64,000 nucleotides of DNA from a bacterium (GTDB lineage: Bacteria > Bacteroidota > Bacteroidia > Bacteroidales > UBA3663). The DNA is taken from the NCBI GenBank assembly GCA_963624265.1, contig CAVFPF010000063.1, positions 17,059 through 81,058 on the forward strand. The letters run 5' to 3'. Shown here in pieces: positions 4,793 to 40,002 of this stretch. Under the pieces are notes generated by a model. The model saw only the letters and a list, made by a program, of their open reading frames with translations. It was not told the DNA's origin and made no database searches. How positions within the stretch are numbered: position 1 is the first letter of the stretch; each line of letters starts with the position of its first letter. Position numbers and translations under genes: made by a program.

Positions 4793-4798
4793 AAGGAT

Positions 4799-21826: not shown

Positions 21827-21901
21827 CCGAATTTGCCAGAAATCGAAACCGAATCTGTTGCCTGTTGCAGTATACAAGAACCCTGTCGAAATACGGACAA
21901 T

Positions 21902-21970
21902 GAAAAAAAGAAAAAGAACGGGAAGAAGAGAGGGAGTGGAATCGTCTGTCAAGGCGAGCCCCTCCTTCTT
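21902..21970 (-). terminator. Rho-independent terminator of the 22007-25390 gene
   Basis: On the minus strand, aagaaggagggg...ctccctctcttctt forms an imperfect stem followed by cccgttctttttcttttttt. Confidence 0.5.
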
Positions 21971-22006
21971 GATGTATTTATAATCTTGCCCAGTTAGGCT
22001 GACTTA

Positions 22007-25000: not shown

Positions 25001-25390
25001 ATCGGTTGCGGCAAGGTTGTTCATGTTGCCGACATTCCAATAGAGGTGGTTGCTTGCATCAAGAGTCCAGGTGTGGCTGGTCTTGATCTGCAGGTTGCAG
25101 GCATCGGCCGAACCCGTGTAATCGTTGGGGTAGAAAATCGGCTTCAGGTTGTTCCACCAGGTTCCGCCCTGCTTGGTTGAGAATGCCACACCGCTTTGAG
25201 GTGTATAGGTCGAGTAGTTGGGTTTCTCCTCGTCCTCAACGGCCTCGACCGTATACTCTTGCGAGAAGTTCCACTCGGCGATTGTGACGCGCTTCACTTC
25301 TTCGGCAGCATAAAGGCCGAAACCGGAAGTCAACGCCAAAACTCCTGCCACAAGACTTGTGCGCAAAGAGCTAATGTAATGCTTGTTCAT
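22007..25390 (-). CDS. Large CE8 pectinesterase-family protein with two N-terminal beta-sandwich modules, an InlB-B-repeat-like segment, an Ig-like domain and a T9SS C-terminal tail
   Basis: The 1127-aa ORF has a signal peptide. The CE8 motifs are GKYYE, QALAL, YQDTWL, GAVDFIYG and FGRPW. The C-terminus is CYDLLGRKANANGRGFMIVNGRKAFK. An internal segment (LGYKFDKWVDAAGNTV...LTAVYKE) resembles the Listeria-Bacteroides repeat. Confidence 0.8.
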   Translation of the reverse strand: MNKHYISSLRTSLVAGVLALTSGFGLYAAEEVKRVTIAEWNFSQEYTVEAVEDEEKPNYSTYTPQSGVAFSTKQGGTWWNNLKPIFYPNDYTGSADACNLQIKTSHTWTLDASNHLYWNVGNMNNLAATDPYSKANIDSYNNYFEFNLSTDGFVAVNMNFSVKSNMNDCYFHVVYSLDEGETWTFVQKVAATNGQWTNYDVTLPSNEWSVKVRLIDFPESQQTWTRYLNQCKITGIESDGDFKMHTLTIAVSPETAGSVTNTPNGVEFIDSTEVSLTANENLGYKFDKWVDAAGNTVSTENPCKVVMTSDVNLTAVYKEASVYPFSLTIKNAKDYMVTTTSTKDPGEKDSVTYYEDGTTVTLTANSTDLMNFLYWDNGSTSLVRRVNITGATDVVANFGMSGNYIVGWDFTQPGGNDYVAAAGNEYNQESTLMLTTDGKTASGKWYDASVTTYNGASCVRVNKTFASNHYFQAHFSTKGCSNIGIYASIGAGSWGAWNFYFLEYSLDNENWKKVGDNAVMSVNHWTNHEVTLPAECNDQENVYVRVSHPEDAATLTENSYEEFCMRAFYVSASGVPAGDVAAPKLEASIPANQGTGAAITGSVILTFDEKVQMANGAYATLNGEKIKAKVAGNSMLFAYTLLDYATDYTFTVPANSIKDLSGNKYAEAININFTTEERTQPAPRLYDAVVAADGSGDYLTIQEAVDAAPASATEPYLIFVKAGKYYEHLAISKPYMHIIGQGRDVVDIYYNQLSGDTDNPEAVEPNAKPNSGMDGASVLVTAANVMFEGVSLSNSWGRDFKVGPQALALRSNCDRFIINKVGLHSYQDTWLTTSTDNYRHYAKDSYITGAVDFIYGKGNVLFENDTLDINRKDGGYITAAEHSATTTWGYAFVNNYITSTTFDPASVSVYFGRPWHSNPQVVFINTTTAVNIYPEGWYETMGGLPALYADYNTRDAAGNLVDTSKRQTTYYNSTDTVKDVQVSLSDAEAASYTLKNMLTGSDAWNPALITTACATPKVSASEGALVWPAVPYAICYVVENEVGEVAAITTERSFTPADADSKYTVRAANEFGGLSNKTVAVSLNSASGIDLVKAASAAAGDCYDLLGRKANANGRGFMIVNGRKAFK

Positions 25391-25471
25391 TATGAAATGG
25401 ATGTTTTTAAGGTGAATAATATGGTTAGACTAGTTTGTTTGCAATTTTATTTGCAATGCGGATTGCAAGCG

Positions 25472-25479
25472 CAAAGGTA
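25472..25479 (-). promoter_or_regulatory. Candidate -7 box TACCTTTG for the 22007-25390 gene
   Basis: The plus strand reads caaaggta, about 82 nt upstream of the ATG. A second candidate, caaatata, is at about 25513. Confidence 0.4.
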
Positions 25480-25657
25480 TTCTGTTTTTTTTGTGCAGGC
25501 AGGAGAAAAAAGTGCAAATATAGGAGAAGTGTGAGAGGATTTTCGTACGGATATTGGGTGATTTTTGTACGAAACCCGGCTCACAACGCACGCAAAAGAG
25601 GCTTCCGGGTAGTGCTCGTCAGCTCTCAACCCAATACAAGTACGGCAGATTATCATC

Positions 25658-25811
25658 AGTCATCGAGTCAGTACCTTCTGTTGAGGATTCCAGTAGCGAA
25701 CGTTGAGGACTCCAGTACCGAACATTGAGGACTACAGTACCAACTATAGAGGACTCCGGCACCAACTGTTGGTTGCAGAAGAACTTTCTATAGAGTACGG
25801 CAGCACTCACA
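25658..25811. repeat. Tandem array of a 22-bp unit: four good copies plus degenerate flanking copies
   Basis: The good units are 25680 gttgaggattccagtagcgaac, 25702 gttgaggactccagtaccgaac, 25724 attgaggactacagtaccaact and 25746 atagaggactccggcaccaact. Degenerate units follow at 25768 and 25790. The array is flanked by agtacggcag at 25639 and 25795. Confidence 0.85.
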
Positions 25812-25985
25812 AGGGAAGCTCCGGCACAAGAAACATAGGAATGGGATGAAAGAAACGCGACTTTTAGCGAAAAGAAACGTAACTTTGTGTGAAGAGAAAC
25901 GGGGGCTCTTACACAAAGCTACGTAGAGAATCGATGTCGGGAGGAATCCGTAAAGCAGACGATGCGGACAGAATGGACCAATCCG

Positions 25986-28388: not shown

Positions 28389-28406
28389 GACATTCAGATT
28401 TCGTAG

Positions 28407-28414
28407 CAAAGATA
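28407..28414 (-). promoter_or_regulatory. Candidate -7 box TATCTTTG for the regulator gene
   Basis: The plus strand reads caaagata, about 20 nt upstream of the ATG at 28388. This implies a very short leader. Confidence 0.35.
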
Positions 28415-29116
28415 GTGATTTTTTTTGCAGAAATAGAAAAAAACGAAGAGGGAACCGTCGTATTTTCTCTTTTATGAAACGTTTTTACTCTATTTTGAGT
28501 AAATTCACTTACAAAATCGCAAGATAAATGCTTTCTGACAAAAACATATCGTGGAGAAAAACACACGGAAGAATGGCGAATGACAAACCCAGGGAGAACA
28601 TGTAAAGCAGGCTAAGACTAGTCGACCAAAGCCGAAAGTGGACAAAGGGTTTGATGCAACGAAAGCAAAATCTCCGACCCAAACCCGTAGAAACAGGAAG
28701 AACGGCCCGTCCTCCCGACGTGCCGTTCCTTCATTACCTTAAATCTAATACCATGAAAAACACAGTGCAAAAATAGACATTCTTTCAGAAACACAAAGGC
28801 AACCGATTGCACAATCAACGTTTTTTAACTAAAAAATAAGTGTTAGCAACCGAAAATGACAAGTCCAATGGACAAAAACAATACAGCAACCAACAAAAAG
28901 CAGCAACTCCATGGGGCAAAGGATTCTCCATTCCACAAATACGGCACTAAAAAGTCGAGCGTTTAGAAAATACCAACGACTCTGACTTTGGTCCTTATCT
29001 ACACACAAGGCCGTCAACCGACACGCTATAGTTGACTTTTGGCCAAAAAATCGTAACAATAGACCTTGTTTTGACGGAAAAATGAAGTTTTTTTTGGAAA
29101 AATCAATATAAACCTC

Positions 29117-29124
29117 TATATTTG
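29117..29124 (+). promoter_or_regulatory. Candidate -7 box TATATTTG for rpsU
   Basis: ctctatatttgcc lies about 113 nt before the ATG at 29237. The leader contains complementary segments caggcagg...cttgcctg. Confidence 0.45.
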
Positions 29125-29236
29125 CCCCGTTTATCAAAGTGGTAAACAACAGGCAGGCCATCGGCTACACTAAGAACGGAGATGTAAAAGCGAGGGAGCC
29201 AGGTCTTGCCTGCAACTTAACAAACCCGAGTACGAT

Positions 29237-29431
29237 ATGATCATTGTACCCATCAAGGAGGGCGAAAACATCGAACGCAGCCTGAAGAAATTCAAGCGCA
29301 AGTACGAGAAGACGGGTGTCATCAAAGAACTCCGTCGTCGTCAGCAGTTCGACAAGCCGTCAGTCTGCCGCCGCCGCAAAATGGAGCGCGCTATCTACGT
29401 GCAGCAGTTGAAGGAACGCGAGGCTGAATAA
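29237..29431 (+). CDS. rpsU: 30S ribosomal protein S21
   Basis: The 64-aa basic protein reads MIIVPIKEGENIERSLKKFKRKYEKTGVIKELRRRQQFDKPS, a typical S21 sequence. Confidence 0.92.
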   Translation: MIIVPIKEGENIERSLKKFKRKYEKTGVIKELRRRQQFDKPSVCRRRKMERAIYVQQLKEREAE

Positions 29432-29453
29432 TCAGGCAATCGCACTCCACCCC

Positions 29454-29534
29454 CGACAGAGGGCAGTCGCCCAATGAGGCGTCCCTCCAAACGCCATACT
29501 TGGCTTACAAAGGCTGTCCCTCTGTCGATTTTTT
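29454..29534 (+). terminator. Long-range hairpin plus T-tract after rpsU
   Basis: cgacagagggcag pairs with ctgtccctctgtcg (one bulge). The pair encloses an inner hairpin ggcgt/acgcc and is followed by attttttc. Confidence 0.5.
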
Positions 29535-29669
29535 CTCAAATGTCCTAACTACCATAGAGAAAACCACAAGACTAACAGACGCAACACGTCATCAAAACAC
29601 ATGACAATCGGATTTCCCCTAAGGACGACCGACACAAGACAATAATAACATTCAATACATCCTAACGAA

Positions 29670-30491
29670 ATGAATCACCGCTACATCACCCGCGCCCTCG
29701 GACTTTTGGCCACCGTATTGCTGCTTGGCAGTTGTGTGTCCCGCGAACATTACATCCTCTTTCAGGATGCCGATGACTATCAGGACGCGAAACGTATCGC
29801 CACGACATACGACATCCGCATACAAGCGGACGACCAACTGTCCATCTCTATCGCATCCAAGGATCGCGAACTAGTCGAGGTCTTCAACAACCAGACGGTC
29901 ATCGGCAGCAACTCGGGAGGCGGCGGTTCTATGGGCGGCGGTTCTATGGGCGGTGGCAGCGATGTGACCGGATTCCATGTCGACAACGAAGGCTACATTG
30001 AGTTCCCGATTCTCGGCCGCATCTATGTGGAAGGCAAGTCCCGTAAGGAAGTGGCACAAGACATCCAGAACCGCTTGCGCGACGGACAGTACGTCAACGA
30101 TGCCGTCGTCAACGTCGAACTTCTCTCCTTCCACGTTGTGGTGGTGCGCGGCAATTCCGGCACCATCCTCAACATCAGCAAAGACCGCTGCACTATTGTC
30201 GAGGCAGTTATGATGGCCGGCGGATTTGAAAACGGCACAGACCGCGAAGACATCTTGCTGGTACGTGAAGAGAACGGCGAACTTTGGACTTACCGCGTCA
30301 ATTTCACCCAACTCAGCAACCTCATCAACTCGCCCGTCTACTACTTGCAGCAGAACGATATCGTCTACATCGAGCCTTCAAGCACGCAAAGTCTCGACGA
30401 GAGCGCGAGCTACAGATATATGTCGTCTGTCACAAGCATCCTCAGCTTCGTCGTCTCGGTGGGCGCCATCCTGCTCAGTCTGTCAAAGTAA
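29670..30491 (+). CDS. Outer-membrane polysaccharide export lipoprotein (OPX, Wza-like)
   Basis: There is a lipoprotein signal (LLLGSCVS). A Poly_export-like core (DQLSISI...GFHVDNEGYIEFPILGRIYVEGKS) and an SLBB-like C-terminal half are present. A GGGGSMGGGSMGGGS insertion is also present. Confidence 0.8.
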   Translation: MNHRYITRALGLLATVLLLGSCVSREHYILFQDADDYQDAKRIATTYDIRIQADDQLSISIASKDRELVEVFNNQTVIGSNSGGGGSMGGGSMGGGSDVTGFHVDNEGYIEFPILGRIYVEGKSRKEVAQDIQNRLRDGQYVNDAVVNVELLSFHVVVVRGNSGTILNISKDRCTIVEAVMMAGGFENGTDREDILLVREENGELWTYRVNFTQLSNLINSPVYYLQQNDIVYIEPSSTQSLDESASYRYMSSVTSILSFVVSVGAILLSLSK

Positions 30492-30567
30492 CAGACAGGG
30501 GCGGACGACTATTCAGGTCAAAAATCCAACAGCTTAACATTCACACCACAAACATACATCTCCATTC

Positions 30568-33141
30568 ATGGAAAACATGAAGTACTCCCGCTTTGATGCG
30601 GGCATGGCTACCGGCACATACACGCCCCACAACAATAGCGGGCGGAAACCGAAGAGCGCCAGTTCGCAACGCTTCAACATGAAGGACTTCCTCATGATGA
30701 TGTTGGCCAACTGGTTTTGGTTCATCATCAGCGCCATCATCGCTTTCGGCGTTGGCTACCTCTACTTGCAGACCTTGCAACCCGAGTACCAGAGGTCTAC
30801 CGACCTTCAGATTAAGTTCTCGAAAAGCGACGAACTCGACATGCGCACCTACTTGGGCATACACGACCTGGGCGTCACCAACATGAGTAACGAACTCTAT
30901 ATTCTCAACTCTCTCAAACTGGCTTCGCAGGTCAGCCAACGCATGCATTTAGACGTTCGCTATTATCTGCAAGGGCCTTTCCGCCGCCAATATCTCTACG
31001 AAGACCGACCCTTCACCGTCACCTTTCTGAATCCATACGACGGCGACATCAGTCTCAAAATCGAACCGATATCACCACAGCAATTCCGACTTAAAGAAGT
31101 CATTGCCGGCGGCACTATACAAAACCTCGGACTCGATTCGCTCTACTATTTCTCAGCACCGTTCCTGCTGCCGGGCACAACGCAGACCATGCGTCTTGAC
31201 GTGAGCGACAGCCAGTACCCTTCGTTGGTCAAAGACATCGACAAGACGGTCATCGTAGACCGCTACAGCCCTGAAGCTGCCGCCGCCCGTTGCCACGGCA
31301 TGGTCATAGCCAGTACCCGCGCAGCAGCGATGGTCCGCATCACCTGTACCTCACCGTCGGTGGTCGAGTGTGACTCCATTCTTTGCTGTTTTGTCGCCGT
31401 CTACAACGGCCAGACGCTGGAGGAAAAGAATGCTTTGACTATCAGTTCGGCACGCTTTATAGACGAACGCATACAAGAGACCGCCCAAGAACTGGGTGAG
31501 ACGGAAAGCCGCCTCTTCACCATGGCCGGCGAAGCCGACCTGTCACCGACAAGCACTGCCAGCGATTTCTCCCGCCAGATTAGCGAGCGCGACCGTGCAC
31601 AAGAGGAACTAGCACAGTTGCAGACACAATTGGTGGCTGCACGTGACCTGAAGAAACGCCTCTCAGTAGCCATCGGGCAAAAAGATTACATCCCAGCCCT
31701 GGCCGGCGTAACCGAATCGGGTGTGTCGGGACAGATTTCTGCCTACAATACGCAAGTGATGCAACGCAACCGGCTGATATCCAACTCTTCAGCCAGCAAC
31801 CCTGCCGTGCTCCGCATCGATGCTTCGCTCGACAATATGTCCCTCGCCATCACTTCGGGCATCGATGCCTATATCGCATCTCTCAGTCAAAAGTCCCGTT
31901 TGGCCAGCAGCCGCGTACAGCGCTACTCTAACATCGGTGAGTCAACGCACAAAAACCGATACGACAGTACCAATATCGAGGCCAAGTCACTCAGCATCAC
32001 ACGCGACTACAAGGAGTCGTACTTCTCTTTCTTGCTTAAGAAACGTGAAGAACTACGTCTCCAAATAGCTGTTTCCGAAGCCGACACACGTGTCATCGAA
32101 GATCCGATGGGCTCTACCGCCCCGATTTCCCCCGTGCCCAACAGCATTATCTCCAAGTTCGTGATTGCAGGACTGATTCTGCCAGCTGCCATTATGCTCA
32201 TCGTACTGCTGATGCACACTGGGGTGCGCGGACGCAAGGACATCGAGGAGTCTCTCACGATGCCGTATATCGGCGAGGTGCCCGACTACAACAAAGCGCG
32301 CGACTCGCGCTCGCTATGGGACCGCATACGTGGTGTAGACAACCGCATCAAGAGCAACCGCATTGCTATCACCAACGAGAGCAAGAATGCCCTCGCCGAA
32401 GGCATGCACGTGGTGCAGAGCAACCTTTCGTTTATGTCTGACAGCAAAGGCCACCGTCCCCAGGTCATCCTATTCACGTCATTTGCACCGGGTGCAGGCA
32501 AGAGTTTTGTCTCTGTCAACCTCGCCTCTTGTATGGCCAACACGGAGAAGCGTTCCATTTGGATAGATATGGATATTCGCAAGGGACACAAGAACCAATT
32601 GCTCTTCACCAAGGAGGACTGGGCTCGTCAGCGCCGGGGCCATCGCACCGGACTGTCGTCTTACCTCTCCGGAAAAGCAGCTCTCGAGGATTGTATCTTC
32701 CAGTCTGCCTCCAATAGCCAACTCGACATCTTGCCGGCCGGACAGATTCCGCCCAATCCCGTACAGCTGCTGATGAGCGACAAACTGGACCAGCTCATTG
32801 CCGACTTGCGCCAACGCTACGAGTACATCATCCTTGACACAGTTCCGGCTGCGCTCATCGCAGACTCGTACATCTGTTCGCGTCTCTCTGACCTGCAGAT
32901 TTTTGTCGTGCGTGTAGGTGTCACAGACCGTGCTCTCCTACCCGAAATCGAGAAAATCTATCAGTCGCACAAATTCAAGAACCTCACCGTACTCCTCAAC
33001 GGCTCGTCGCTCAACCGCCGCCGCTACGGCTATGGATACGGCTATGGATACGGCTATGGATACGGCTATGGATACGGATATGGCGAAAGCGATGACAACA
33101 AGAAATCAAAAAGCGCATCCGCTGCCGACGATGAAGCTTAA
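30568..33141 (+). CDS. Polysaccharide co-polymerase / BY-kinase (Wzc/GumC-like, PCP-2a type) with a C-terminal Tyr-Gly repeat tail
   Basis: The 857-aa ORF has an N-terminal TM helix and a Wzz-like periplasmic region with coiled coil, then a second TM helix. It has Walker A (FAPGAGKSF), a Walker B-like motif (YIILDTVPA), and a tail of ten YG dipeptides by DNA count. Confidence 0.85.
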   Translation: MENMKYSRFDAGMATGTYTPHNNSGRKPKSASSQRFNMKDFLMMMLANWFWFIISAIIAFGVGYLYLQTLQPEYQRSTDLQIKFSKSDELDMRTYLGIHDLGVTNMSNELYILNSLKLASQVSQRMHLDVRYYLQGPFRRQYLYEDRPFTVTFLNPYDGDISLKIEPISPQQFRLKEVIAGGTIQNLGLDSLYYFSAPFLLPGTTQTMRLDVSDSQYPSLVKDIDKTVIVDRYSPEAAAARCHGMVIASTRAAAMVRITCTSPSVVECDSILCCFVAVYNGQTLEEKNALTISSARFIDERIQETAQELGETESRLFTMAGEADLSPTSTASDFSRQISERDRAQEELAQLQTQLVAARDLKKRLSVAIGQKDYIPALAGVTESGVSGQISAYNTQVMQRNRLISNSSASNPAVLRIDASLDNMSLAITSGIDAYIASLSQKSRLASSRVQRYSNIGESTHKNRYDSTNIEAKSLSITRDYKESYFSFLLKKREELRLQIAVSEADTRVIEDPMGSTAPISPVPNSIISKFVIAGLILPAAIMLIVLLMHTGVRGRKDIEESLTMPYIGEVPDYNKARDSRSLWDRIRGVDNRIKSNRIAITNESKNALAEGMHVVQSNLSFMSDSKGHRPQVILFTSFAPGAGKSFVSVNLASCMANTEKRSIWIDMDIRKGHKNQLLFTKEDWARQRRGHRTGLSSYLSGKAALEDCIFQSASNSQLDILPAGQIPPNPVQLLMSDKLDQLIADLRQRYEYIILDTVPAALIADSYICSRLSDLQIFVVRVGVTDRALLPEIEKIYQSHKFKNLTVLLNGSSLNRRRYGYGYGYGYGYGYGYGYGYGESDDNKKSKSASAADDEA
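33025..33084 (+). repeat. Five tandem copies of a 12-bp unit (tacggctatgga) encoding (YG)10
   Basis: There are four perfect units at 33025-33072 and one variant unit, tacggatatggc, at 33073-33084. The repeat is in frame with the kinase gene. Confidence 0.9.
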
Positions 33142-33202
33142 CCTCTGGCTTCCGCGACTCTGTAATCTATAACAAGTACTCACACAAACCAACGACAAAG
33201 TA

Positions 33203-34057
33203 ATGCAAACCGACAAAGAATGGGACACCATCATAAAGCCTCACACTGGCTGGCTTGACATCGACATAAAAGGCATTTGGCGCTATCGGAATCTGTACTG
33301 GCAGTTCGTGAAGCGAGACATTGTGACCGTCTACAAACAGACCATTTTCGGTCCATTGTGGTTTTTGGTCCAGCCTATCTTCACCACGTTGATGTACATC
33401 TTTGTCTTCGCCAATTTGGCAGGCATCTCGACCGGCAATATGCCGCCAGCTATCTTCTACATGAGCGGCACATTGTTGTGGGGCTATTTCGCCACTTGTT
33501 TCGGTATTGGCCAAGGTGTATTCTCGGGCAATGCAGGCATCTTCTCCAAAGTCTACTTTCCAAGACTTGTTTCGCCCCTGTCGTCTATGACCTCGGCTTT
33601 CATCAAGATTGCCATTCAAAGCATCCCATTGCTCTGCATCTGGATTTATTATTCTACAGACCCTGACATTCACATACAGTTGGTTTGGGAGTTTGTCCTC
33701 TTCCCGTTATTCTTCATCATCCTCGCATTGACGGGTTTGGGATGCGGACTGATTGTCTCGTGTGTTACCATCAAATACCGCGACCTCGGCAACCTCGTCG
33801 GATTCTTTATGCAGGTTTGGATGTACTTGACTCCGGTCATCTACCCCGTCACCGTATCAAAAGACCGTATGCTCACACGTTTCCTGTACTTTAACCCCCT
33901 ACAGGGCATATTCACCGACTTCCGCTACATGCTCACCGGCATTGGCGAGATGGATTGGATGTCGCTGCTCTACAGCGTAGTCTTCATGGCTGTCGTCCTC
34001 CTCTTCGGCGTTATGGTATTCTCGAAACAGGAACGCACTTTTATGGATACAATATAA
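33203..34057 (+). CDS. ABC-2 type polysaccharide/teichoic-acid export permease (Wzm/TagG/KpsM-like)
   Basis: The 284-aa ORF has six predicted TM segments. Its N-terminal YWQFVKRDIVTVYKQTIFGPLWFLVQP is typical of ABC-2 exporters. Confidence 0.85.
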   Translation: MQTDKEWDTIIKPHTGWLDIDIKGIWRYRNLYWQFVKRDIVTVYKQTIFGPLWFLVQPIFTTLMYIFVFANLAGISTGNMPPAIFYMSGTLLWGYFATCFGIGQGVFSGNAGIFSKVYFPRLVSPLSSMTSAFIKIAIQSIPLLCIWIYYSTDPDIHIQLVWEFVLFPLFFIILALTGLGCGLIVSCVTIKYRDLGNLVGFFMQVWMYLTPVIYPVTVSKDRMLTRFLYFNPLQGIFTDFRYMLTGIGEMDWMSLLYSVVFMAVVLLFGVMVFSKQERTFMDTI

Positions 34058-34124
34058 CGAAACTCGCCATATAACATTATAGTAATCATAGTCCGGAACC
34101 CCGGACTTCAGACCTACGACACAC

Positions 34125-35432
34125 ATGCCAACCGCTATATCTTTCGAAAACGTCAGCAAACTCTACCAACTCGGCACCTTCGGCACCGGGACACTCAGCA
34201 ACGACATCAAGCGCTGGTGGGTAACCTCGGTGCTCGGCAAGGAAGACCCCTTCCTCAAGGTCGGCCAAGTCAACAACCGCGCCGCAAAAGCCAAGTCTGA
34301 CTTTGTCTATGCACTCAAGGACATCAGCTTCAACATCGAACAAGGTGACGTAGTCGGTGTCATAGGCAGCAATGGTGCTGGCAAGTCGACCCTCCTCAAA
34401 CTGTTGAGCCGTATCACCGCCCCTACTACGGGAATTATCAAAACCAAAGGTCGTCTGGCTACACTCCTTGAAGTGGGAACTGGATTCCATGGTGAACTGA
34501 CCGGACGTGAGAACATCTACATCAACGGCTCTATCATGGGCATGACGAAACAGGAAATCGACAAACGCCTCGATGAAATCATCGATTTCTCGGGCTGCGA
34601 GATGTACATCGACACACCCGTCAAGCGCTATTCCTCTGGTATGACCATACGTCTCGGCTTTGCCGTAGCCGCGTTTCTTGAGCCCGAGATTCTTGTGGTC
34701 GACGAGGTCCTGGCTGTAGGAGATATTGAGTTCCAACGCAAGGCCATCGGCAAGATGAGCGACATCAGCCACGAGAATGGTCGAACGGTGCTCTTTGTCA
34801 GTCATAACATGGGCTCGGTTCGGCGTCTGTGTAAACACGGCATCGTGCTCAGCAATGGCATGATTGACTTCACGGGCGATATAGACGAGGCCGTCAACTA
34901 CTACACACAAGAAAACATCGACACCTCCGCACGACACATTCGCCTCGCTGACCGCAACTGGGGACGGAATGAAAAATATCGATTGGGTCTGGAAATTTCA
35001 GAAGTCACCATCCTAAACGACCCCGACAACATGGCGACCGACGAACCCATAGAACTGGTGCTCCACATCAAGCGCAACCAAACGGATATACGCGACGGGT
35101 TCTTCGCAATCATAATACGCGATGCAACGGCTGGCACTCGCCTGCTCAACAGCTATACCGACACGGTGCACCTGCCCGAAGGACGGAACGAGTTTGACTT
35201 GCATATCACCATACGCGACCATCGGCTGCTCGACAACAAGTACTCGATACAACTCGAAGCCAGTTCGCTTGTTGACGGAAGAACAATGATACATGATATG
35301 GTATTCGATGTGCTACGCTTCTACGTTCGCTTCAAGTCAATGAAAACCCGGGAACCATATCTCACCGACTGGAGTGACAAGGGCTATATGCAATTCAAAG
35401 GAGAACCTTTCGTATCTGCGGAGACCGACTGA
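34125..35432 (+). CDS. ABC exporter ATP-binding protein (Wzt/TagH-like) with a C-terminal extension of about 185 aa
   Basis: Walker A (GSNGAGKST), signature (YSSGMTIRLGFA) and Walker B (ILVVDE) are present. Residues after about 250 form an extra domain in the position of the Wzt C-terminal glycan-binding domain. Confidence 0.85.
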   Translation: MPTAISFENVSKLYQLGTFGTGTLSNDIKRWWVTSVLGKEDPFLKVGQVNNRAAKAKSDFVYALKDISFNIEQGDVVGVIGSNGAGKSTLLKLLSRITAPTTGIIKTKGRLATLLEVGTGFHGELTGRENIYINGSIMGMTKQEIDKRLDEIIDFSGCEMYIDTPVKRYSSGMTIRLGFAVAAFLEPEILVVDEVLAVGDIEFQRKAIGKMSDISHENGRTVLFVSHNMGSVRRLCKHGIVLSNGMIDFTGDIDEAVNYYTQENIDTSARHIRLADRNWGRNEKYRLGLEISEVTILNDPDNMATDEPIELVLHIKRNQTDIRDGFFAIIIRDATAGTRLLNSYTDTVHLPEGRNEFDLHITIRDHRLLDNKYSIQLEASSLVDGRTMIHDMVFDVLRFYVRFKSMKTREPYLTDWSDKGYMQFKGEPFVSAETD

Positions 35433-35451
35433 TTTTACAATATACAAGTCT

Positions 35452-36630
35452 ATGACGTCTAATAAACATACAAGCACAGAAGGTAATGCCAGTCTAGACA
35501 ACGGCACAACATCGGCGATGGTGAAAGAATCCACCATCACGGTCACTTCGCCTCTTTTGCCGAACTTGCAGGAATTTACGGACATGCTTGAGAAAATCTG
35601 GCAACGTAAATGGATTACCAACAATGGTGATTTTCACCAACAACTCGAAACAGAGTTGGCTGATTACCTCAAGGTGCCCTACGTCAGTCTCTTCACCAAC
35701 GGCACACTGCCACTCATCACGGCACTTCAGGCACTGCACATCACAGGCGAAGTCATCACAACCCCATATAGCTTCGTCGCTACTACCCATGCACTATGGT
35801 GGAACGGCATCAAACCTGTCTTCGTTGATGTAGACCCCGAGACGGGCAATATCGACCCCGAACAAATTGAATCTGCCATCACTCCCCGCACAACCGCAAT
35901 ACTTCCCGTACATGTCTACGGCCAACCCTGCCGCACCGACGACATACGCACCATCGCCGACAAGTACGGATTAAAGGTCATCTACGATGCGGCTCACGCT
36001 TTCGGCGTAGAAGTCGGAGGTGAAAGCATCCTCAACGCCGGTGACCTCTCAACCCTGTCTTTCCACGCCACCAAAGTCTACAACACCATCGAAGGCGGCG
36101 CTATGGTAATGCACGACAAAGCCACCAAACAGCGCATCGACTACCTGAAGAACTTTGGCTTTGCCGATGAGGTGACCGTTGTAGGTCCCGGCATCAATAG
36201 CAAGATGGACGAAATCCGGGCGGCTTACGGCATCCTCAACCTTCGCCAAGTCGATGCGGCTATTGAAGCCCGCAGCCTAGCAGCCGCAGCCTATCGGCAA
36301 GCCTTAACCGACATCGAGGGAATCAGAATGCCAAAACCCGTGCCCGAAATACGCTACAATTATGCCTATTTCCCCATTTTTATCGACAGCGAAGCTTATG
36401 GCATGAGCCGTGACGAACTCTATGCCAAGATGAAGTCTCGCGGCATTTACGGGCGTCGTTATTTCTATCCGCTTATCAGCACCTTCCCCACCTACCGCGG
36501 ACTTGAAAGTGCCGACCCTCGCCATCTGCCTAACGCACAACGTTTAGCAGATAGCGTTATCTGCCTACCTATGCACCATGCTTTAAGTCAAGACGATATC
36601 AAACGTGTCATAGATTGTATCGTGCACTAA
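35452..36630 (+). CDS. DegT/DnrJ/EryC1/StrS-family sugar aminotransferase
   Basis: Motifs include LPNLQEF...KWITNNG, the SFHATKVYNTIEGGAMV PLP-lysine motif, and a C-terminal LPMHHALSQDD. I placed the start at the ATG at 35452; the track ORF starts at 35374 and overlaps the upstream gene. Confidence 0.85.
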   Translation: MTSNKHTSTEGNASLDNGTTSAMVKESTITVTSPLLPNLQEFTDMLEKIWQRKWITNNGDFHQQLETELADYLKVPYVSLFTNGTLPLITALQALHITGEVITTPYSFVATTHALWWNGIKPVFVDVDPETGNIDPEQIESAITPRTTAILPVHVYGQPCRTDDIRTIADKYGLKVIYDAAHAFGVEVGGESILNAGDLSTLSFHATKVYNTIEGGAMVMHDKATKQRIDYLKNFGFADEVTVVGPGINSKMDEIRAAYGILNLRQVDAAIEARSLAAAAYRQALTDIEGIRMPKPVPEIRYNYAYFPIFIDSEAYGMSRDELYAKMKSRGIYGRRYFYPLISTFPTYRGLESADPRHLPNAQRLADSVICLPMHHALSQDDIKRVIDCIVH

Positions 36631-36690
36631 CAGTTTTAACCAATAATGCGAACTCAAACCGAGACCCTATTCATTTGATTTAAGCAGACC

Positions 36691-37734
36691 ATGACTTTCT
36701 ATCCCGTTATTATCCCCACGTTGAACCGCTTCAAGCACCTACAAGCATGCATCAGTTCATTGCAGCAATGTACACATGCTGACAAGACAGAACTGGTAGT
36801 AGGTCTTGACTATCCGCCATCGGAAGATTATCGTGAAGGATATGAGGAAATAAAATCCTATCTGCCCAGCATCAAGGGTTTCGCCAAAGTCACCATTTGG
36901 GAACGTGATTACAATTATGGAGCAGTAAGGAACACACGAACAATGGTAGAATACTGCCTATCGCGTTACGACGCCTTCATTTTTACTGAGGATGACAATG
37001 TGTTCTCTCCTTGTTTCCTCGATTATATGAACAAGGCATTAGATAAATATCGTGATGATGAACGCATCGCGTCTGTGTGCGGATTCTGTTACCCGATTAA
37101 CTGCGGAACAAGTTTAGGAAGCGCCTGTCTAACTTATGAAGACTTGGCTTGGGGTGAGGGATTCTGGCGAGACAAATGGCGTGCAGCGAACGAGGTGATT
37201 AGTCGCAAAACTTTTTTTAAGGAAATAATAACATCGGAAACGATTGTCGAGAAATATCTCTCCATCTATCCTAGAGGTTTTCATATTCTTCTAGACATGA
37301 TAAAACAAAAGGCCTCTTGGGGTGATATTGAGTGTACCGCCTACAATTTTCTAACAGACCATTTTCAGATTCAGCCAAACACATCTTTAGTGCGGAATAT
37401 AGGCCACGATGGTTCTGGGCTGCATAGCGTCATACGACCAGAATTGCTTCAGCAAGAAATATGCAGTGCTGCAACGTACGACCTTCCGAATACATTAGAT
37501 ATGCAACGCACTGACATAGTGGGGCGAGGACTTCGACATCTTTATTTGGAAATGCCTACAGATTCCAAGGCCTACCAAGCAGAAATTAAACAACTCAGAA
37601 AACGAGCACGAGACCTTCGGCTTCTATATCAACATCCTTGGCTACAATGGCTTGTTGACAGACCTGAACGGTTGCAATGGTATGCACATCGCTACTGGTT
37701 AGCAGTTCTACGCCGCTGTGGGAAACCGGTATAA
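36691..37734 (+). CDS. Glycosyltransferase (GT-A fold, GT2-like), paralog A
   Basis: There is a VIIPTLNRFKHL N-terminus and a TEDDNVFSP DxD-like motif. The ORF is strongly similar along its length to the 38938-40002 product. Confidence 0.65.
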   Translation: MTFYPVIIPTLNRFKHLQACISSLQQCTHADKTELVVGLDYPPSEDYREGYEEIKSYLPSIKGFAKVTIWERDYNYGAVRNTRTMVEYCLSRYDAFIFTEDDNVFSPCFLDYMNKALDKYRDDERIASVCGFCYPINCGTSLGSACLTYEDLAWGEGFWRDKWRAANEVISRKTFFKEIITSETIVEKYLSIYPRGFHILLDMIKQKASWGDIECTAYNFLTDHFQIQPNTSLVRNIGHDGSGLHSVIRPELLQQEICSAATYDLPNTLDMQRTDIVGRGLRHLYLEMPTDSKAYQAEIKQLRKRARDLRLLYQHPWLQWLVDRPERLQWYAHRYWLAVLRRCGKPV

Positions 37735-37784
37735 AAGGCATCTGAGATTAACGCAAATATAATCACCTGAAAAACCTTTACAAT

Positions 37785-38921
37785 ATGAGAATCCTTTGGA
37801 ATAGGAAAACTCGCAACTTGTGCATAAAAATCATGCAAACACTGCCCATCCGGCAGGGTCGCGTGATGTGCGTGTGCTGGGGAGGAGAGCAGTACGACTG
37901 CAGCCCCCGAGCCATAGTTGAGAAAATGGCAGATATGGGGCTCGCCCATGGGGCGGGGAAAAAGTTCGAAGTTTCATTCGCCTTCTTTCACCCTGAGAAT
38001 TTTTTGACCGATTTGCCCATTGGCGTTGAGGGTGTCACTATTGGCAGCTATCAATACTTCAAACAACTAAGCACAGCGCAATTTATCATTGCCAACACCC
38101 GCTTTGGTGGGAGTATGTTTTGGCCTATGCCAAAACGCAAAGGGCAATATTATATACAAACTATGCACGGCGGACATGGCATCAAGCACGTGGAATTTGA
38201 TGTGGACCTTCCGGAAGCATATCTAAAGTTGGTAGATGAAGATGCTAAGCGCACCGACATCATGCCAAGCGAATCGGATTATCAGAACCGGCTCTTCCAC
38301 TCCGCCTATCATTACTACGGAGATGTTCTAAACACCGGATTGCCCCGCAACGACATTTTTTTCCGCCCAGCTCCAGACAAACTGCACAAGCAGAAGAGTT
38401 ATGTCATCTACACGCCCACTTTCCGCAGCAATGGACGGCGTGATGTTTTTGGCTTCAATACCGACCGAGTGATCGAAGCTCTCGAACAACGCTTTGGCGG
38501 CGAATGGTATGTAATGATATCTTCCCATCCCAATATGCGTAGCTACTACCACGAGCTCTATGACTTCAGTCATCCACGCTTGATAGATGTAGGTCGGGAA
38601 GATTTGCATCCATTACTGCGCATGAGTGAAGCGCTTATCACTGACTATAGTAGCGCAGAAATGGATTTTTCGCTCATGAATCGTCCTATATTCCAACTCT
38701 GCAAGGACCGGGCAGACTACGACAGAGGGTTCTATATCAAGCCCGAAGAGTTGCCCTTCCCATACGCAGAGACGGATGATCAATTGGTCAACAATATCCT
38801 CTCTTTTGACGCAGAAAAATATGCTGCAGACTTGGAGGCCTTTAACCGCGAAAGAATTGGCCTGCACGAGACGGGTCACGCCTCTGAGGATATGATCCGC
38901 TGGATGCTAGAGAGACGATAA
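37785..38921 (+). CDS. CDP-glycerol glycerophosphotransferase family protein (TagF/TagB-like)
   Basis: Motifs IYTPTFRSNG, ISSHPNM and ALITDYSSAEMDFSL correspond to conserved Glyphos_transf blocks (xPTxR, HP, TDYSS). Confidence 0.75.
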   Translation: MRILWNRKTRNLCIKIMQTLPIRQGRVMCVCWGGEQYDCSPRAIVEKMADMGLAHGAGKKFEVSFAFFHPENFLTDLPIGVEGVTIGSYQYFKQLSTAQFIIANTRFGGSMFWPMPKRKGQYYIQTMHGGHGIKHVEFDVDLPEAYLKLVDEDAKRTDIMPSESDYQNRLFHSAYHYYGDVLNTGLPRNDIFFRPAPDKLHKQKSYVIYTPTFRSNGRRDVFGFNTDRVIEALEQRFGGEWYVMISSHPNMRSYYHELYDFSHPRLIDVGREDLHPLLRMSEALITDYSSAEMDFSLMNRPIFQLCKDRADYDRGFYIKPEELPFPYAETDDQLVNNILSFDAEKYAADLEAFNRERIGLHETGHASEDMIRWMLERR

Positions 38922-38937
38922 AACAAAATACTATTGT

Positions 38938-40002
38938 ATGACATACTATCCCGTCCTTATCCCGACGCTGAACCGCTACGAGCATTTCAAAGCTTGCGTA
39001 GAATCTCTTCAACAATGTACGTATGCGAACAAAACAGAACTTGTAGTAGGGCTCGACTATCCTCCAGCAGACCGATACCGCGATGGCTATGAGAAAATCA
39101 AGGCCTTCTTGCCGACCATCAAAGGGTTCGCCAAAGTAACGGTGTTCGAGCGCGAGCACAACTACGGCGCCATAAAGAATTGGTATGCTTTGGCAGATTA
39201 TTGCTTAGAACGATACGATGCATTCATAGCTACCGAGGACGACAACATATTTTCGCCCTGTTATCTCGACTACATGAATCAGGCGTTCGAGCGATTCCGT
39301 GATGACAGCAGCATTGTATCCGTAAGCGGATACAGCCACCCTGCCAGTTTGGGCACAAGCACAAAAAGCGCATACTTGAGCTATACGCACTCCGCTTGGG
39401 GCGAAGGCTATTGGAAGCACAAATACAGGCAGGTAGAGCGCACCATTGAAGACGATGCTTTCTTCCATAGGATAGTACGGACAAAGGGGCTGGCAATGCG
39501 GGTCGCCAGCATCTATCCACGTGGCTACTGGTCTCTACTAGACATCCTAAAGAGTGGCGGCCGCGACTTTTGGGGTGACCTCAAGTGGGCTCTCTACAAC
39601 ATCACAACAGGGCACTTCCAACTACAACCTGCCGTATCGTTGGTACGCAATATGGGGTGCGATGGTTCCGGACTGCATTGTGATGTAGACCAAACCTTCA
39701 GTCAGCAAACCATCAGCTCTGATACAACATTCAATATGACAACCAATCCCTCCATACAACGCATCGACATCGAGGGCCGCGGGCCGCGTTGGCAAGATAT
39801 GCCAACTGACCCCAAGGAGTATAGTGATGCTATAGAAGCTCTATACCGCCGAGCACAACGTGTCCGGTTGAAATACACGCGGCCGTGGTGGTGGCTATTC
39901 CGGTTGCTCGACCGCTCAAGGAGTGGCTATGGCCTCATCTATAAACTAGGTATAAAAACAGGACTGCTGCACAGCACCGACCTAACCAAGAAGTTGCACT
40001 GA
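38938..40002 (+). CDS. Glycosyltransferase (GT-A fold, GT2-like), paralog B
   Basis: VLIPTLNRYEHF, TELVVGLDYPPADRYRDGYEKIKAFLPTIKGFAKVT and TEDDNIFSP align block by block with paralog A. Confidence 0.65.
   Translation: MTYYPVLIPTLNRYEHFKACVESLQQCTYANKTELVVGLDYPPADRYRDGYEKIKAFLPTIKGFAKVTVFEREHNYGAIKNWYALADYCLERYDAFIATEDDNIFSPCYLDYMNQAFERFRDDSSIVSVSGYSHPASLGTSTKSAYLSYTHSAWGEGYWKHKYRQVERTIEDDAFFHRIVRTKGLAMRVASIYPRGYWSLLDILKSGGRDFWGDLKWALYNITTGHFQLQPAVSLVRNMGCDGSGLHCDVDQTFSQQTISSDTTFNMTTNPSIQRIDIEGRGPRWQDMPTDPKEYSDAIEALYRRAQRVRLKYTRPWWWLFRLLDRSRSGYGLIYKLGIKTGLLHSTDLTKKLH

What the first reader, a model, noticed from the sequence alone, without database searches (positions are those of the whole stretch)
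29670..40002. Hybrid surface-polymer locus: Wza/Wzc-type export proteins plus a Wzm/Wzt ABC exporter plus a TagF-type glycerophosphotransferase, with no Wzx or Wzy
Seen in sequence: eight co-oriented, tightly spaced genes.
- An OPX lipoprotein.
- A PCP-2a-like BY-kinase.
- An ABC-2 permease.
- A Wzt/TagH-like ATPase with an extra C-terminal domain.
- A DegT aminotransferase.
- A GT-A glycosyltransferase.
- A TagF-like enzyme (PTFR, SSHP and TDYSS blocks).
- A second copy of the glycosyltransferase.

No flippase, polymerase, initiating phosphoglycosyltransferase or glycerol-3-phosphate cytidylyltransferase ORF is visible in the window. I also found no TAnnTTTG box between the rpsU terminator and the first gene.

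Established knowledge: BY-kinase PCP-2a and OPX pairs normally serve Wzx/Wzy-dependent capsules. ABC-dependent capsules normally use a kinase-less PCP-3. TagF-like polymerases are known from Gram-positive wall teichoic acids and from a few proteobacterial group-2 capsules.

Inference: this locus may make a glycerol-phosphate-containing, teichoic-acid-like polymer. The polymer would be built in the cytoplasm, exported by the ABC pump and passed to a tyrosine-kinase-controlled OPX channel. I do not know this pathway combination as a described system in Bacteroidales.
Basis: partly seen in the sequence, partly recalled or inferred. Interest (0 to 1): 0.65.

Follow-up and report, generated by a model that had tools for sequence, protein, structure and literature searches.

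The report
Hybrid Bacteroidales surface-glycan export locus
An uncultured gut Bacteroidales bacterium has one tight operon joining a capsule-type outer-membrane channel and tyrosine-kinase co-polymerase to an O-antigen/teichoic-acid-type ABC exporter and a glycerol-phosphate transferase; this pairing recurs in relatives but is not in the textbook pathways, and it is shown here only by gene order.

Summary
Window 29670-40002 (+) holds eight tightly spaced genes:
- a short Wza-like OPX lipoprotein
- a PCP-2a BY-kinase with intact Walker A/A'/B motifs and a (YG)10 tail
- Wzm
- Wzt with a Wzt_C-type C-terminal domain
- a DegT aminotransferase
- two paralogous GT-A enzymes
- a 378-aa TagF-fold enzyme with both catalytic histidines

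No wzx, wzy, initiating transferase or tagD is found in the window.

Related loci change the interpretation. The conserved core is Wzm-Wzt-TagF-like, surrounded by completely different glycosyltransferase sets. The TagF-like enzyme is evenly conserved on both its acceptor and donor sides, while the Wzt C-terminal domain diverges fast. This favours a TagB/TarF/CpsA-type priming ("transition") glycerophosphotransferase over a teichoic-acid polymerase.

The OPX-PCP pair belongs to a distinct subfamily anchored next to rpsU. It lies directly upstream of wzm in about nine lineages, once with a stop/start overlap. Both modules also occur alone.

Functional coupling of a kinase-bearing PCP-2a/OPX to an ABC exporter is therefore plausible (about 0.4-0.5) but unproven. 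The rival is an independent OPX-Wzc pair sitting beside an ABC-dependent O-antigen-like locus.

Verdict: a new variant of known kinds, of moderate interest.

The parts
29117..29124 (+). Bacteroidetes-type -7 box (TATATTTG) upstream of rpsU; the only + strand TAnnTTTG between 26064 and 44042
29237..29431 (+). rpsU (ribosomal protein S21). Its position directly upstream of the OPX gene is conserved in relatives.
29454..29535 (+). Long hairpin followed by a U-run (rpsU terminator-like). An equivalent hairpin plus U-run is present in every related lineage, with different sequence.
29670..30491 (+). Short Wza-like OPX lipoprotein (273 aa): Poly_export, one SLBB domain and a C-terminal hydrophobic helix. 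Contains a Gly/Ser-rich insert.
   Evidence: class described in PMC9601211
30568..33141 (+). PCP-2a with BY-kinase (857 aa): TM1 49-67, divergent periplasmic domain, TM2 531-550, Walker A/A'/B. Member of a distinct subfamily.
33025..33084 (+). (YG)10 tyrosine cluster, encoded by a 12-nt tandem DNA repeat. Copy number differs among relatives (5 to 13).
33203..34057 (+). Wzm ABC-2 permease (284 aa)
34125..35432 (+). Wzt ATPase (435 aa): NBD about residues 55-262; C-terminal Wzt_C-type carbohydrate-binding domain about residues 261-435 (nt 34905-35432)
35452..36630 (+). DegT/DesI-like PLP sugar 4-aminotransferase. Start is uncertain: the ORF opens at GTG 35374, with ATGs at 35452 and 35518.
36691..37734 (+). 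GT-A (GT2-like) glycosyltransferase, paralog 1 (347 aa)
37785..38921 (+). Short TagF-fold CDP-polyol phosphotransferase (378 aa). Catalytic H128 and H248; PTFR, SSHP and TDYSS blocks present.
38938..40002 (+). GT-A glycosyltransferase, paralog 2 (354 aa), 53% identical to paralog 1

Best explanation
This is one strain-specific version of a variable surface-glycan locus found in a clade of uncultured gut and rumen Bacteroidales.

Conserved and variable parts. The conserved core is Wzm, a Wzt ATPase carrying a Wzt_C-type carbohydrate-binding domain, and a short TagB/TarF/CpsA-like glycerophosphotransferase. The variable cassette here is a DegT 4-aminotransferase plus two paralogous GT-A enzymes.

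Proposed mechanism.
1. The glycan is built at the cytoplasmic face on a lipid carrier. It is started by an unlinked initiating transferase, as in other ABC-dependent O-polysaccharide loci (inferred).
2. The TagF-like enzyme transfers one or a few polyol-phosphate units at an invariant step. Most likely it transfers glycerol-phosphate from CDP-glycerol made elsewhere. Most likely it primes or bridges the conserved lipid-linked primer to the variable chain (inferred from conservation pattern, size and precedent).
3. The GT-A paralogs extend a chain that contains a 4-amino-dideoxy sugar (inferred).
4. The fast-evolving Wzt C-terminal domain reads the strain-specific chain terminus, and Wzm/Wzt exports the finished polymer (family membership shown; ligand inferred).
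5. In this lineage, the co-operonic and diverged PCP-2a BY-kinase and short Wza-like OPX then probably take the lipid-linked polymer from the periplasmic face across the outer membrane as a capsule-like layer. Export would be gated by autophosphorylation of the (YG)n tail (inferred from gene order only).
For: Gene identities.

Conserved core with variable glycosyltransferases:
- Wzm-Wzt-TagF-like recurs in L001, L007-L011, L013-L017, L021 and L029 with unrelated GT, acyltransferase and GtrA sets.

Invariant step for the TagF-like enzyme:
- Its N (acceptor-side) and C (CDP-side) halves are about equally conserved, at 55% and 63% mean pairwise identity.
- In contrast, the Wzt NBD is 82% identical while its CBD is 34%.
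- Its best curated match is TarF, a short oligomer-adding enzyme, at 94.8 bits, against TarL polymerase at 21.5 bits.
- It is a single domain of 378 aa.
- Precedent: the PF04464 enzymes TagB and CpsA prime ABC-dependent polymers (PMC11666461).

Coupling to OPX-PCP:
- All eight genes are co-oriented with 16-76 nt gaps, apart from the Wzt-DegT junction, whose spacing depends on the uncertain DegT start. There is no internal + strand promoter box, and no terminator-like site lies in any of the gaps between the genes.
- PCP-wzm adjacency holds in window/L006, L013, L018, L019/L020, L021, L001 (4-nt stop/start overlap), L028 and L029, and in L025 with a 1.6 kb gap. PCP identities across these range from 35 to 65%.
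- The PCP is a separate subfamily. Identity drops from 46% or more to 30% or less for ordinary Bacteroidales Wzc, and its Wzz/GNVR matches are sub-threshold.
- L020 and L029 also carry a second, ordinary Wzc.
Against: - Both modules are separable. rpsU-OPX-PCP stands alone in L022/L026 and L030. Wzm-Wzt-TagF-like occurs without OPX-PCP within 10 kb in L014-L017.
- The adjacency could simply be inherited within one family-level clade.
- A CBD-bearing Wzt is typical of O-antigen or S-layer glycan export, which is followed by ligation rather than by OPX export. One relative (L003) has a Wzy_C/ligase-family gene in its cluster.
- No cytidylyltransferase is linked here or in 483 kb of related loci, except an IspD-like gene in L017. 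The donor is therefore unverified.
- No cognate phosphatase is adjacent.
- The priming role is not distinguished experimentally from polymerase or terminator roles. L029 has almost no other intact transferase next to the TagF-like gene, which would fit a polymerase.
Confidence: 0.4

Rival explanations
1. There are two independent units that merely sit side by side. The first is a stand-alone rpsU-linked OPX-Wzc pair that serves Wzx/Wzy-dependent capsule loci elsewhere in the genome. The second is an ABC-dependent, CBD-gated O-antigen-like locus: its Und-PP-linked product is ligated by an unlinked WaaL-type ligase to lipid A-core or another acceptor, and reaches the surface by Lpt, not through the OPX.
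For: - Stand-alone OPX-PCP of this same subfamily occurs next to rpsU without any ABC genes (L022/L026, L030).
- Ordinary Bacteroidales Wzc occurs as a stand-alone OPX-Wzc-CpsB unit in a housekeeping context (L031). P. gingivalis PGN_1523-1525 is the same (PMC3684754).
- The Wzm-Wzt-TagF trio occurs without OPX-PCP.
- The Wzt is of the Wzt/TagH type with a Wzt_C domain.
- A Wzy_C-family gene lies in the L003 cluster.
Against: - There are no terminators or promoter boxes between PCP and wzm, and the two genes overlap stop/start in L001.
- The adjacency is kept across 35-65% PCP identity, even where mobile or defence genes have inserted between wzm and wzt.
- The periplasmic domain is diverged, and a second ordinary Wzc coexists in L020 and L029.
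- No wzx or wzy is found in 64 kb.
Confidence: 0.35
2. One reading: the TagF-like enzyme is a polymerase component. Together with the two GT-A enzymes it builds a teichoic-acid-like poly(glycosyl-glycerol-phosphate) chain, as in Actinobacillus pleuropneumoniae and Campylobacter jejuni HS:1 capsules. The chain is then exported by the ABC pump and the OPX.
For: - The enzyme has the TagF fold and catalytic histidines.
- Only three transferases are present in this locus, enough for a -sugar-sugar-GroP- repeat.
- Separate TagF-like and GT enzymes are known to polymerise such capsules (PMC11666461; the title and abstract of PMC11924219).
- L029 has little besides the TagF-like enzyme.
Against: - Orthologues at 50-63% identity sit in loci with 5-20 unrelated glycosyltransferases, yet keep the acceptor-side domain conserved.
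- The characterised polymerases for which lengths were seen here are all larger and multidomain: TagF 729 aa, TarL 583 aa and Cps3D 1149 aa. The enzymes this one resembles in size (my own knowledge) and in score are primases or oligomerases.
- There is no linked tagD.
Confidence: 0.25
3. The TagF-like enzyme is the chain terminator. It caps the non-reducing end with glycerol-phosphate, and the Wzt C-terminal domain must bind that cap before export. This would be analogous to the methyl-phosphate cap of E. coli O9a or the Kdo cap of Klebsiella O12.
For: - The Wzt carries a Wzt_C-type domain, which in model systems reads a terminal cap (PMC9445017 abstract).
- No other terminator candidate (methyltransferase, kinase or Kdo transferase) is present in the operon.
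- wzt and the TagF-like gene are immediately adjacent in L015, L017 and L029.
Against: - If the cap were always the same, the CBD should be conserved. Instead it is the fastest-evolving part (22-31% identity to the window).
- A terminator would face different acceptor sugars in each locus, yet its acceptor-side domain is conserved.
Confidence: 0.12

Closest known systems
ABC transporter-dependent O-polysaccharide pathway with a CBD-bearing Wzt (E. coli O9a, Klebsiella O12, Aquifex aeolicus Wzm/Wzt)
   Same: - Wzm ABC-2 permease.
- Wzt NBD most similar to Aquifex Wzt (197 bits).
- A C-terminal Wzt_C-type domain that diverges with the glycan.
- Initiating transferase not encoded in the locus.
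- Few soluble or peripheral GTs.
   Different: - It is co-operonic with an OPX and a PCP-2a BY-kinase.
- There is no WaaL, Wzz or recognisable terminator.
- A conserved TagF-like enzyme is part of the core.
Group 2 capsule systems with TagF-like enzymes and transition transferases (A. pleuropneumoniae CpsA/CpsC/CpsD; KpsMT-KpsE-KpsD)
   Same: - An ABC exporter plus OPX plus PCP in a Gram-negative.
- A PF04464 enzyme acting in an ABC-dependent pathway.
- CpsA is a short priming GroP transferase that links a conserved anchor to a variable polymer (PMC11666461).
   Different: - The exporter is of the Wzt/TagH type, not KpsMT (KpsT 103 bits, KpsM 23 bits).
- The PCP is a kinase-bearing PCP-2a, not PCP-3/KpsE.
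- There are no KpsC/KpsS Kdo-linker enzymes.
- The Wzt has a CBD.
Gram-positive wall teichoic acid pathway (TagO/A/B/D/F, TagGH or TarGH)
   Same: - TagH/TarH-like ATPase (203 and 171 bits).
- ABC-2 permease.
- TagB/TarF-like short glycerophosphotransferase with the TagF fold and catalytic histidines.
   Different: - It is a Gram-negative host with an outer-membrane export pair.
- There is no TagD, TagO/TagA or LCP ligase in the window.
- Variable heteroglycan GT cassettes replace a poly(GroP/RboP) main chain.
Group 1/4 capsule export (E. coli Wza-Wzc) and the short Bacteroidetes OPX class
   Same: - OPX with Poly_export/SLBB and a C-terminal helix.
- PCP-2a aligning to Wzc from the distal periplasmic region through TM2 and the kinase.
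- Walker A/A'/B motifs and a Tyr cluster.
- Short OPX of 280 aa or less with a C-terminal helix is typical of Bacteroidetes (PMC9601211).
   Different: - There is no Wzx, Wzy or Wzb here.
- The periplasmic N-terminal ~450 aa is diverged.
- The genes directly downstream are an ABC exporter.

Membership tests
TagF-like CDP-polyol phosphotransferases (PF04464) | Full-length match to the family profile above the curated cutoff | tested here: met
   Glyphos_transf 165.1 bits against a cutoff of 22.1, profile positions 5-363 of 367
TagF-like CDP-polyol phosphotransferases (PF04464) | Two catalytic histidines (S. epidermidis TagF H444 and H584) | tested here: met
   H128 (TMHGG) and H248 (SSHP) align to H444 and H584. 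Both are invariant in 21 homologues.
TagF-like CDP-polyol phosphotransferases (PF04464) | TagF GT-B-like fold | tested here: met
   AF2 pLDDT 90.4. Foldseek top hits are TagF 3L7I-M, TM 0.79-0.80, E 7e-23, followed by Cps3D and TarL.
TagF-like CDP-polyol phosphotransferases (PF04464) | CDP-glycerol (or CDP-ribitol) donor available | tested here: inconclusive
   No TagD/IspD-type gene in the window or in most related loci.
TagF-like CDP-polyol phosphotransferases (PF04464) | Role as primer versus polymerase versus terminator | not testable with these tools
   Only indirect evidence: size, best match to TarF and the conservation pattern
BY-kinase PCP-2a (Wzc type) | Two TM segments flanking a periplasmic domain, fused to a cytoplasmic P-loop kinase | tested here: met
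   TM segments 49-67 and 531-550. Aligns to E. coli Wzc residues 357-717. TIGR01007 scores 118 bits against a cutoff of 108.
BY-kinase PCP-2a (Wzc type) | Walker A, A' and B motifs and a C-terminal tyrosine cluster | tested here: met
   GAGKS 642-646, IWIDMDIRK 664-672, YIILDTVP 753-760 and (YG)10 820-839. All are conserved in the subfamily.
BY-kinase PCP-2a (Wzc type) | Works with Wzx/Wzy and a cognate phosphatase | tested here: not met
   No Wzx, Wzy, Wzb or CpsB in the 64 kb window. The genome outside the window was not examined.
OPX (Wza-like) | Poly_export (PES) and SLBB domains, lipoprotein signal, C-terminal OM helix | tested here: met
   Poly_export scores 60.7 bits against a cutoff of 28; SLBB_2 is sub-threshold at 22.8 bits. 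Matches Wza 2J58. Lipobox and terminal hydrophobic segment 250-273.
O-antigen type Wzm/Wzt exporter with CBD | ABC-2 permease plus Wzt/TagH-clade NBD | tested here: met
   Aquifex Wzt 197 bits, TarH 171 bits, KpsT only 103 bits
O-antigen type Wzm/Wzt exporter with CBD | C-terminal Wzt_C carbohydrate-binding domain | tested here: met
   No direct Pfam hit. However, the domain scores 109.7 bits against an HMM of orthologous domains, against a best of 6.9 bits among 200 shuffles. The L013 and L025 orthologues hit Wzt_C at 31.5 and 25.4 bits. 15 of 29 relatives hit Wzt_C, best E 2.6e-12.
O-antigen type Wzm/Wzt exporter with CBD | Dedicated chain terminator and WaaL ligation | tested here: inconclusive
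   No methyltransferase, kinase, Kdo transferase or Wzy_C gene in the window. The TagF-like enzyme is the only candidate, and the data lean against it.
Group 2/3 capsule (KpsMT-KpsE-KpsD, KpsC/S) | KpsM/KpsT-type exporter, kinase-less PCP-3, beta-Kdo linker enzymes | tested here: not met
   KpsM 23 bits against a cutoff of 300. The PCP carries a BY-kinase. No Capsule_synth genes in the window.

The most novel reading that the evidence does not exclude
A fourth, hybrid route of capsule assembly in Bacteroidales. The glycans would be Und-PP-linked, polyol-phosphate-primed and fully polymerised in the cytoplasm. A CBD-gated Wzm/Wzt pump would export them, and they would then be handed to a dedicated, diverged PCP-2a/OPX conduit. 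Opening of that conduit would be controlled by tyrosine autophosphorylation of a length-variable (YG)n tail. In other words, a BY-kinase would regulate an ABC-dependent pathway rather than a Wzy-dependent one.
Probability: 0.35. Interest if true: 0.7.

Novelty: new variant of a known kind. Interest (0 to 1): 0.5.

Why it matters
Current schemes tie kinase-bearing PCP-2a/OPX pairs to Wzx/Wzy polymerisation, and kinase-less PCP-3 to ABC exporters (reviewed in PMC12220298). A natural, recurrent operon joining PCP-2a/OPX to a Wzt/TagH-type exporter would matter in three ways.

- It would show that the periplasm-to-surface conduit is independent of how the polymer crosses the inner membrane.
- It would give a system for asking what BY-kinase cycling controls when no Wzy is present.
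- It points to a conserved TagB/CpsA-like priming step in Gram-negative commensals. That extends the recently described "transition transferase" logic beyond group 2 capsules of pathogens.

It also defines a hypervariable glycan locus in abundant, uncultured gut and rumen Bacteroidales. Such a locus is likely to matter for phage and host interactions.

Tried and rejected
- A profile of six C-terminal domains found no PDB sequence. Homology to Wzt_C had to be shown transitively instead.
- The GT-A paralogs have no PDB sequence relative and no NCBIfam hit. The AF2 model from the two-sequence alignment was too poor to use (pLDDT 49), so no fold search was run and the sugar specificity remains unknown.
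- Rfam gave no hit anywhere in the window.
- The sigma-70 promoter and terminator scans were at chance level.
- Motif scans for TagD (HxGH, RTxGISTT), IspD and WecA in the window and in 483 kb of related loci gave only spurious hits. These regexes are crude: they missed the IspD-like gene that Pfam marks in L017.
- The idea that a universal GroP cap is read by a conserved CBD was rejected because the CBD is the least conserved part.
- The group 2 (Kps) capsule assignment was rejected on the exporter and PCP types.
- The genome-contig scan returned only 9 loci and the metagenome scan only 11. The synteny statistics therefore rest on roughly 12-15 independent lineages.
Full report
**1. What is in the sequence**

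Window 29670-40002 carries eight + strand ORFs. The gaps between them are 16 to 76 nt, apart from the Wzt-DegT junction, whose spacing depends on the uncertain DegT start.

- **OPX (273 aa).** It has Poly_export (60.7 bits) and an SLBB domain, and it aligns to domains 1-2 of E. coli Wza. It begins with a lipobox (LLLGSC) and ends in a hydrophobic helix. Short OPX proteins of 280 aa or less with a C-terminal helix are typical of Bacteroidetes and are thought to work like Wza (PMC9601211).
- **PCP (857 aa).** This is a complete PCP-2a.
  - It has two TM segments.
  - It passes the curated cutoff of the tyrosine-autokinase model TIGR01007 (118 bits).
  - It aligns to E. coli Wzc from the distal periplasmic region through the kinase.
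  - It carries Walker A (642-646), A' (664-672) and B (753-760), and ten consecutive YG dipeptides.
- **ABC permease.** An ABC-2 protein.
- **ATPase.** It is closest to Aquifex Wzt (197 bits), then TarH/TagH. It is far from KpsT (103 bits).
- **ATPase C-terminal domain (175 aa).**
  - It has no direct Pfam hit.
  - It scores 109.7 bits against an HMM built only from the orthologous domains of related loci; the best of 200 shuffles scored 6.9 bits.
  - Two of those orthologues hit Pfam Wzt_C (31.5 and 25.4 bits).
  - 15 of 29 relatives found in the 1.84-billion-protein library hit Wzt_C.
- **DegT protein.** It is DesI/PseC-like but scores below every equivalog cutoff.
- **GT-A proteins.** The two are 53% identical.
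- **TagF-like protein (378 aa).**
  - It matches PF04464 end to end (165 bits).
  - It keeps both catalytic histidines.
  - It models with pLDDT 90 onto TagF at TM 0.8.

**2. Surroundings**

Upstream lie an AraC/Reg_prop regulator (-) and rpsU (+). Downstream are peptidase C69, an M23 peptidase and ychF (-).

Pfam on essentially all sizeable ORFs of the 64 kb window, plus motif scans, found none of the following: Wzx, Wzy/Wzy_C, phosphoglycosyltransferase, WecA, TagD/IspD, KpsC/S or a tyrosine phosphatase.

The only + strand TAnnTTTG box near the locus lies upstream of rpsU (29117-29124). rpsU is followed by a strong hairpin and U-run (z = -4.5). No terminator-like site lies in any of the gaps between the eight genes.

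- The DegT start is probably 35452 or 35518.
- A second glycosyltransferase cluster sits at the left edge of the window (540-5770, minus strand).
- The organism is an uncultured Bacteroidales, so Prevotellaceae is not established. A 96%-identical locus occurs in MAG CAVGQN01. The GlnA-III cluster, at 90% identity or more, includes Candidatus Liminaster caballi.

**3. Related loci change the picture**

The TagF-like protein has more than 1000 relatives, many at 50-63% identity, almost all from gut or rumen metagenomes. Loci around them and around PCP relatives show three things.

*(a) The conserved core is Wzm, Wzt (about 430 aa) and the TagF-like gene.*
- The trio is contiguous in L015 and L017.
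- wzt and the TagF-like gene are adjacent in L029, close together in L021, and separated by one or two genes in L001, L013 and L016.
- Around this core, the glycosyltransferase, acyltransferase, GtrA, MBOAT and hexapeptide genes are completely different from locus to locus. They range from almost none (L029) to more than 20 (L004).
- The window's DegT and GT-A genes are shared only with L011.

*(b) rpsU-OPX-PCP is a conserved triad in this clade.*
- wzm follows the PCP directly in window/L006, L013, L018, L019/L020, L021, L028 and L029.
- In L001 the stop and start overlap by 4 nt.
- In L025 wzm follows after 1.6 kb.
- PCP identities across these loci range from 35 to 65%.
- The adjacency survives even where mobile or defence genes have inserted between wzm and wzt (L001, L020, L029).

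*(c) Both modules also occur alone.*
- OPX-PCP next to rpsU is followed by housekeeping genes in L022/L026 and L030.
- The Wzm-Wzt-TagF trio has no OPX-PCP within 10 kb in L014-L017.
- Ordinary Bacteroidales Wzc (30% identity or less) occurs as a stand-alone OPX-Wzc-CpsB unit (L031). P. gingivalis PGN_1523-1525 is arranged the same way (PMC3684754).
- L020 and L029 carry such an ordinary Wzc in addition to the rpsU-linked one.

**4. Role of the TagF-like enzyme**

Across 21 homologues from loci with different glycosyltransferase sets, the acceptor-side half (55% mean pairwise identity) is nearly as conserved as the CDP-side half (63%). In the same loci the Wzt NBD is about 82% identical, while its C-terminal domain is only about 34% identical overall and 22-31% identical to the window.

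The simplest reading is as follows. The TagF-like enzyme sees the same acceptor and donor everywhere, so it acts at an invariant step. The Wzt C-terminal domain tracks the variable part of the glycan, as Wzt CBDs do in model O-antigen systems (PMC9445017 abstract).

Several other facts point the same way:
- Its best curated match is TarF (94.8 bits), against TarB at 35 bits and TarL at 21.5 bits.
- It is a single domain. The characterised polymerases whose lengths were seen here are larger: TagF 729 aa, TarL 583 aa and Cps3D 1149 aa.
- Precedent: the PF04464 enzymes TagB and CpsA prime ABC-dependent polymers by adding GroP to a conserved anchor (PMC11666461).

I therefore favour a priming or "transition" glycerophosphotransferase at about 0.45. 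The alternatives are:
- A GroP-capping terminator (about 0.12). This is disfavoured because the CBD is not conserved.

The donor is unverified. No cytidylyltransferase is linked here or in 483 kb of related loci, apart from an IspD-like gene (with LicD and a second PF04464 gene) in L017.

**5. Is the OPX/PCP-2a pair the outer half of this pathway?**

Evidence for:
- A single apparent transcription unit.
- Conserved adjacency, including the stop/start overlap in L001.
- A PCP subfamily whose Wzz/GNVR matches are sub-threshold, with a gap in identity to ordinary Wzc.
- Coexistence with an ordinary Wzc in L020 and L029.
- Chemical plausibility, which is inference only. A Wzt/TagH-type pump delivers a finished lipid-linked polymer to the periplasmic face. 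That is the same kind of substrate that Wzc/Wza handle after Wzy.

Evidence against:
- The modules are separable.
- The adjacency might only be inherited within one clade.
- CBD-bearing Wzt proteins classically feed ligation to lipid A-core. L003 has a Wzy_C-family gene in its cluster.

I put functional coupling at roughly 0.4-0.5.

**6. Comparison with known systems**

The exporter and its CBD belong to the O-antigen/WTA type of ABC pathway. The PF04464 enzyme belongs with TagB, TarF and CpsA. The OPX and PCP belong with Wza and Wzc.

The locus is not a group 2 (Kps) capsule system. It lacks a KpsMT-type exporter, PCP-3 and Kdo-linker enzymes. It is not a Wzx/Wzy locus either.

Current reviews assign PCP-2a to Wzy-dependent pathways and PCP-3 to ABC-dependent pathways (PMC12220298). 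My literature searches found no description of this combination in Bacteroidales. That is an absence in a limited library, not proof that it has never been described.

**7. Verdict**

The arrangement is non-canonical and recurrent. I classify the locus as a new variant of known kinds, with interest 0.5. The most novel reading not excluded by the evidence is a BY-kinase-gated PCP-2a/OPX conduit serving an ABC-dependent pathway, at a probability of about 0.35.

Noticed in passing
window 540-5770 (minus strand, running off the left edge): A second glycan gene cluster: hexapeptide acyltransferase (540-1175), a GT11/O-FucT-like protein with an HxRRxD motif (1188-2009), a GT10 alpha-1,3-fucosyltransferase (2020-3030), GT2 (3097-3870), an unknown 313-aa protein (3851-4792) and GT2 (4799-5770). 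No transporter is visible. Similar FucT/GT2 sets surround TagF-like homologues in L004/L005.
   Followed up: partly
window 33025-33084; L006, L013, L018, L019/L020, L029: The BY-kinase tyrosine cluster is a pure (YG)n tract encoded by a 12-nt tandem DNA repeat. Its length differs between close relatives: 10 in the window, 11 in the 96%-identical L006, and 9 in L013 against 5 in L029, which share the same tail. It reaches 13 in L019. In-frame repeat slippage may tune kinase regulation.
   Followed up: partly
window 29432-29669 and the rpsU-OPX intergenic regions of L006, L013, L018-L021, L024, L029, L030: rpsU lies directly upstream of the OPX gene in every lineage of this clade. It is always followed by a strong hairpin plus U-run of unrelated sequence. 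L021 and L024 have a TAnnTTTG box after it, but the window does not. How the OPX operon is transcribed here is therefore unclear; read-through or an unrecognised promoter are the options.
   Followed up: partly
window 28410-29236: An ~830-nt stretch between the AraC-type regulator gene and rpsU has no convincing ORF and no Rfam hit.
   Followed up: no
L001 3797-5437; L020 14763-21332; L029 13477-16443; L013 5138-8715: The wzm-wzt gap is an insertion hot spot in relatives. L001 has GtrA, DUF3791 and DUF3990. L020 has Bro-N, a 995-aa DNA methylase and a TIR protein. L029 has an unknown 455-aa protein plus Rce1-like and UbiA genes. In the window the same gap is only 67 nt.
   Followed up: partly
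L016 11112-12746; L029 19495-20883: The same kind of Schlafen AlbA_2 / HATPase_c_4 / HTH gene sits immediately after the TagF-like gene in two separate lineages.
   Followed up: no
window 29900-29970 (OPX residues ~78-98): A Gly/Ser-rich low-complexity insert (GSNSGGGGSMGGGSMGGGSD) lies inside the OPX. It produces spurious PDB matches to scFv linkers.
   Followed up: no
P0192, P0197, P0205, P0206, P0216: A ~45-residue stretch of the window's Wzt C-terminal domain (about residues 73-126 of the domain) matches 4-9 times within giant repetitive proteins of 1147-4446 aa. This suggests a shared beta-sandwich repeat.
   Followed up: no
L020 17-949; L029 1-1928: Relatives carry a second, ordinary Wzc (with Wzz and GNVR hits) next to ychF-M23-C69. 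In the window the ychF-M23-C69 block is inverted and lies downstream of the operon, and no second Wzc is next to it.
   Followed up: partly
L017 1946-3523 and 12662-13885: One relative adds an IspD-like cytidylyltransferase, a LicD-family protein and a second PF04464 gene. This resembles the CpsA/CpsC (PF04464 + LicD) pair of A. pleuropneumoniae.
   Followed up: no
window 19043-28409: Two very large pectinesterase-domain proteins (840 and 1127 aa, with Big_5 domains) lie next to a Reg_prop/AraC hybrid regulator, just upstream of the locus.
   Followed up: no
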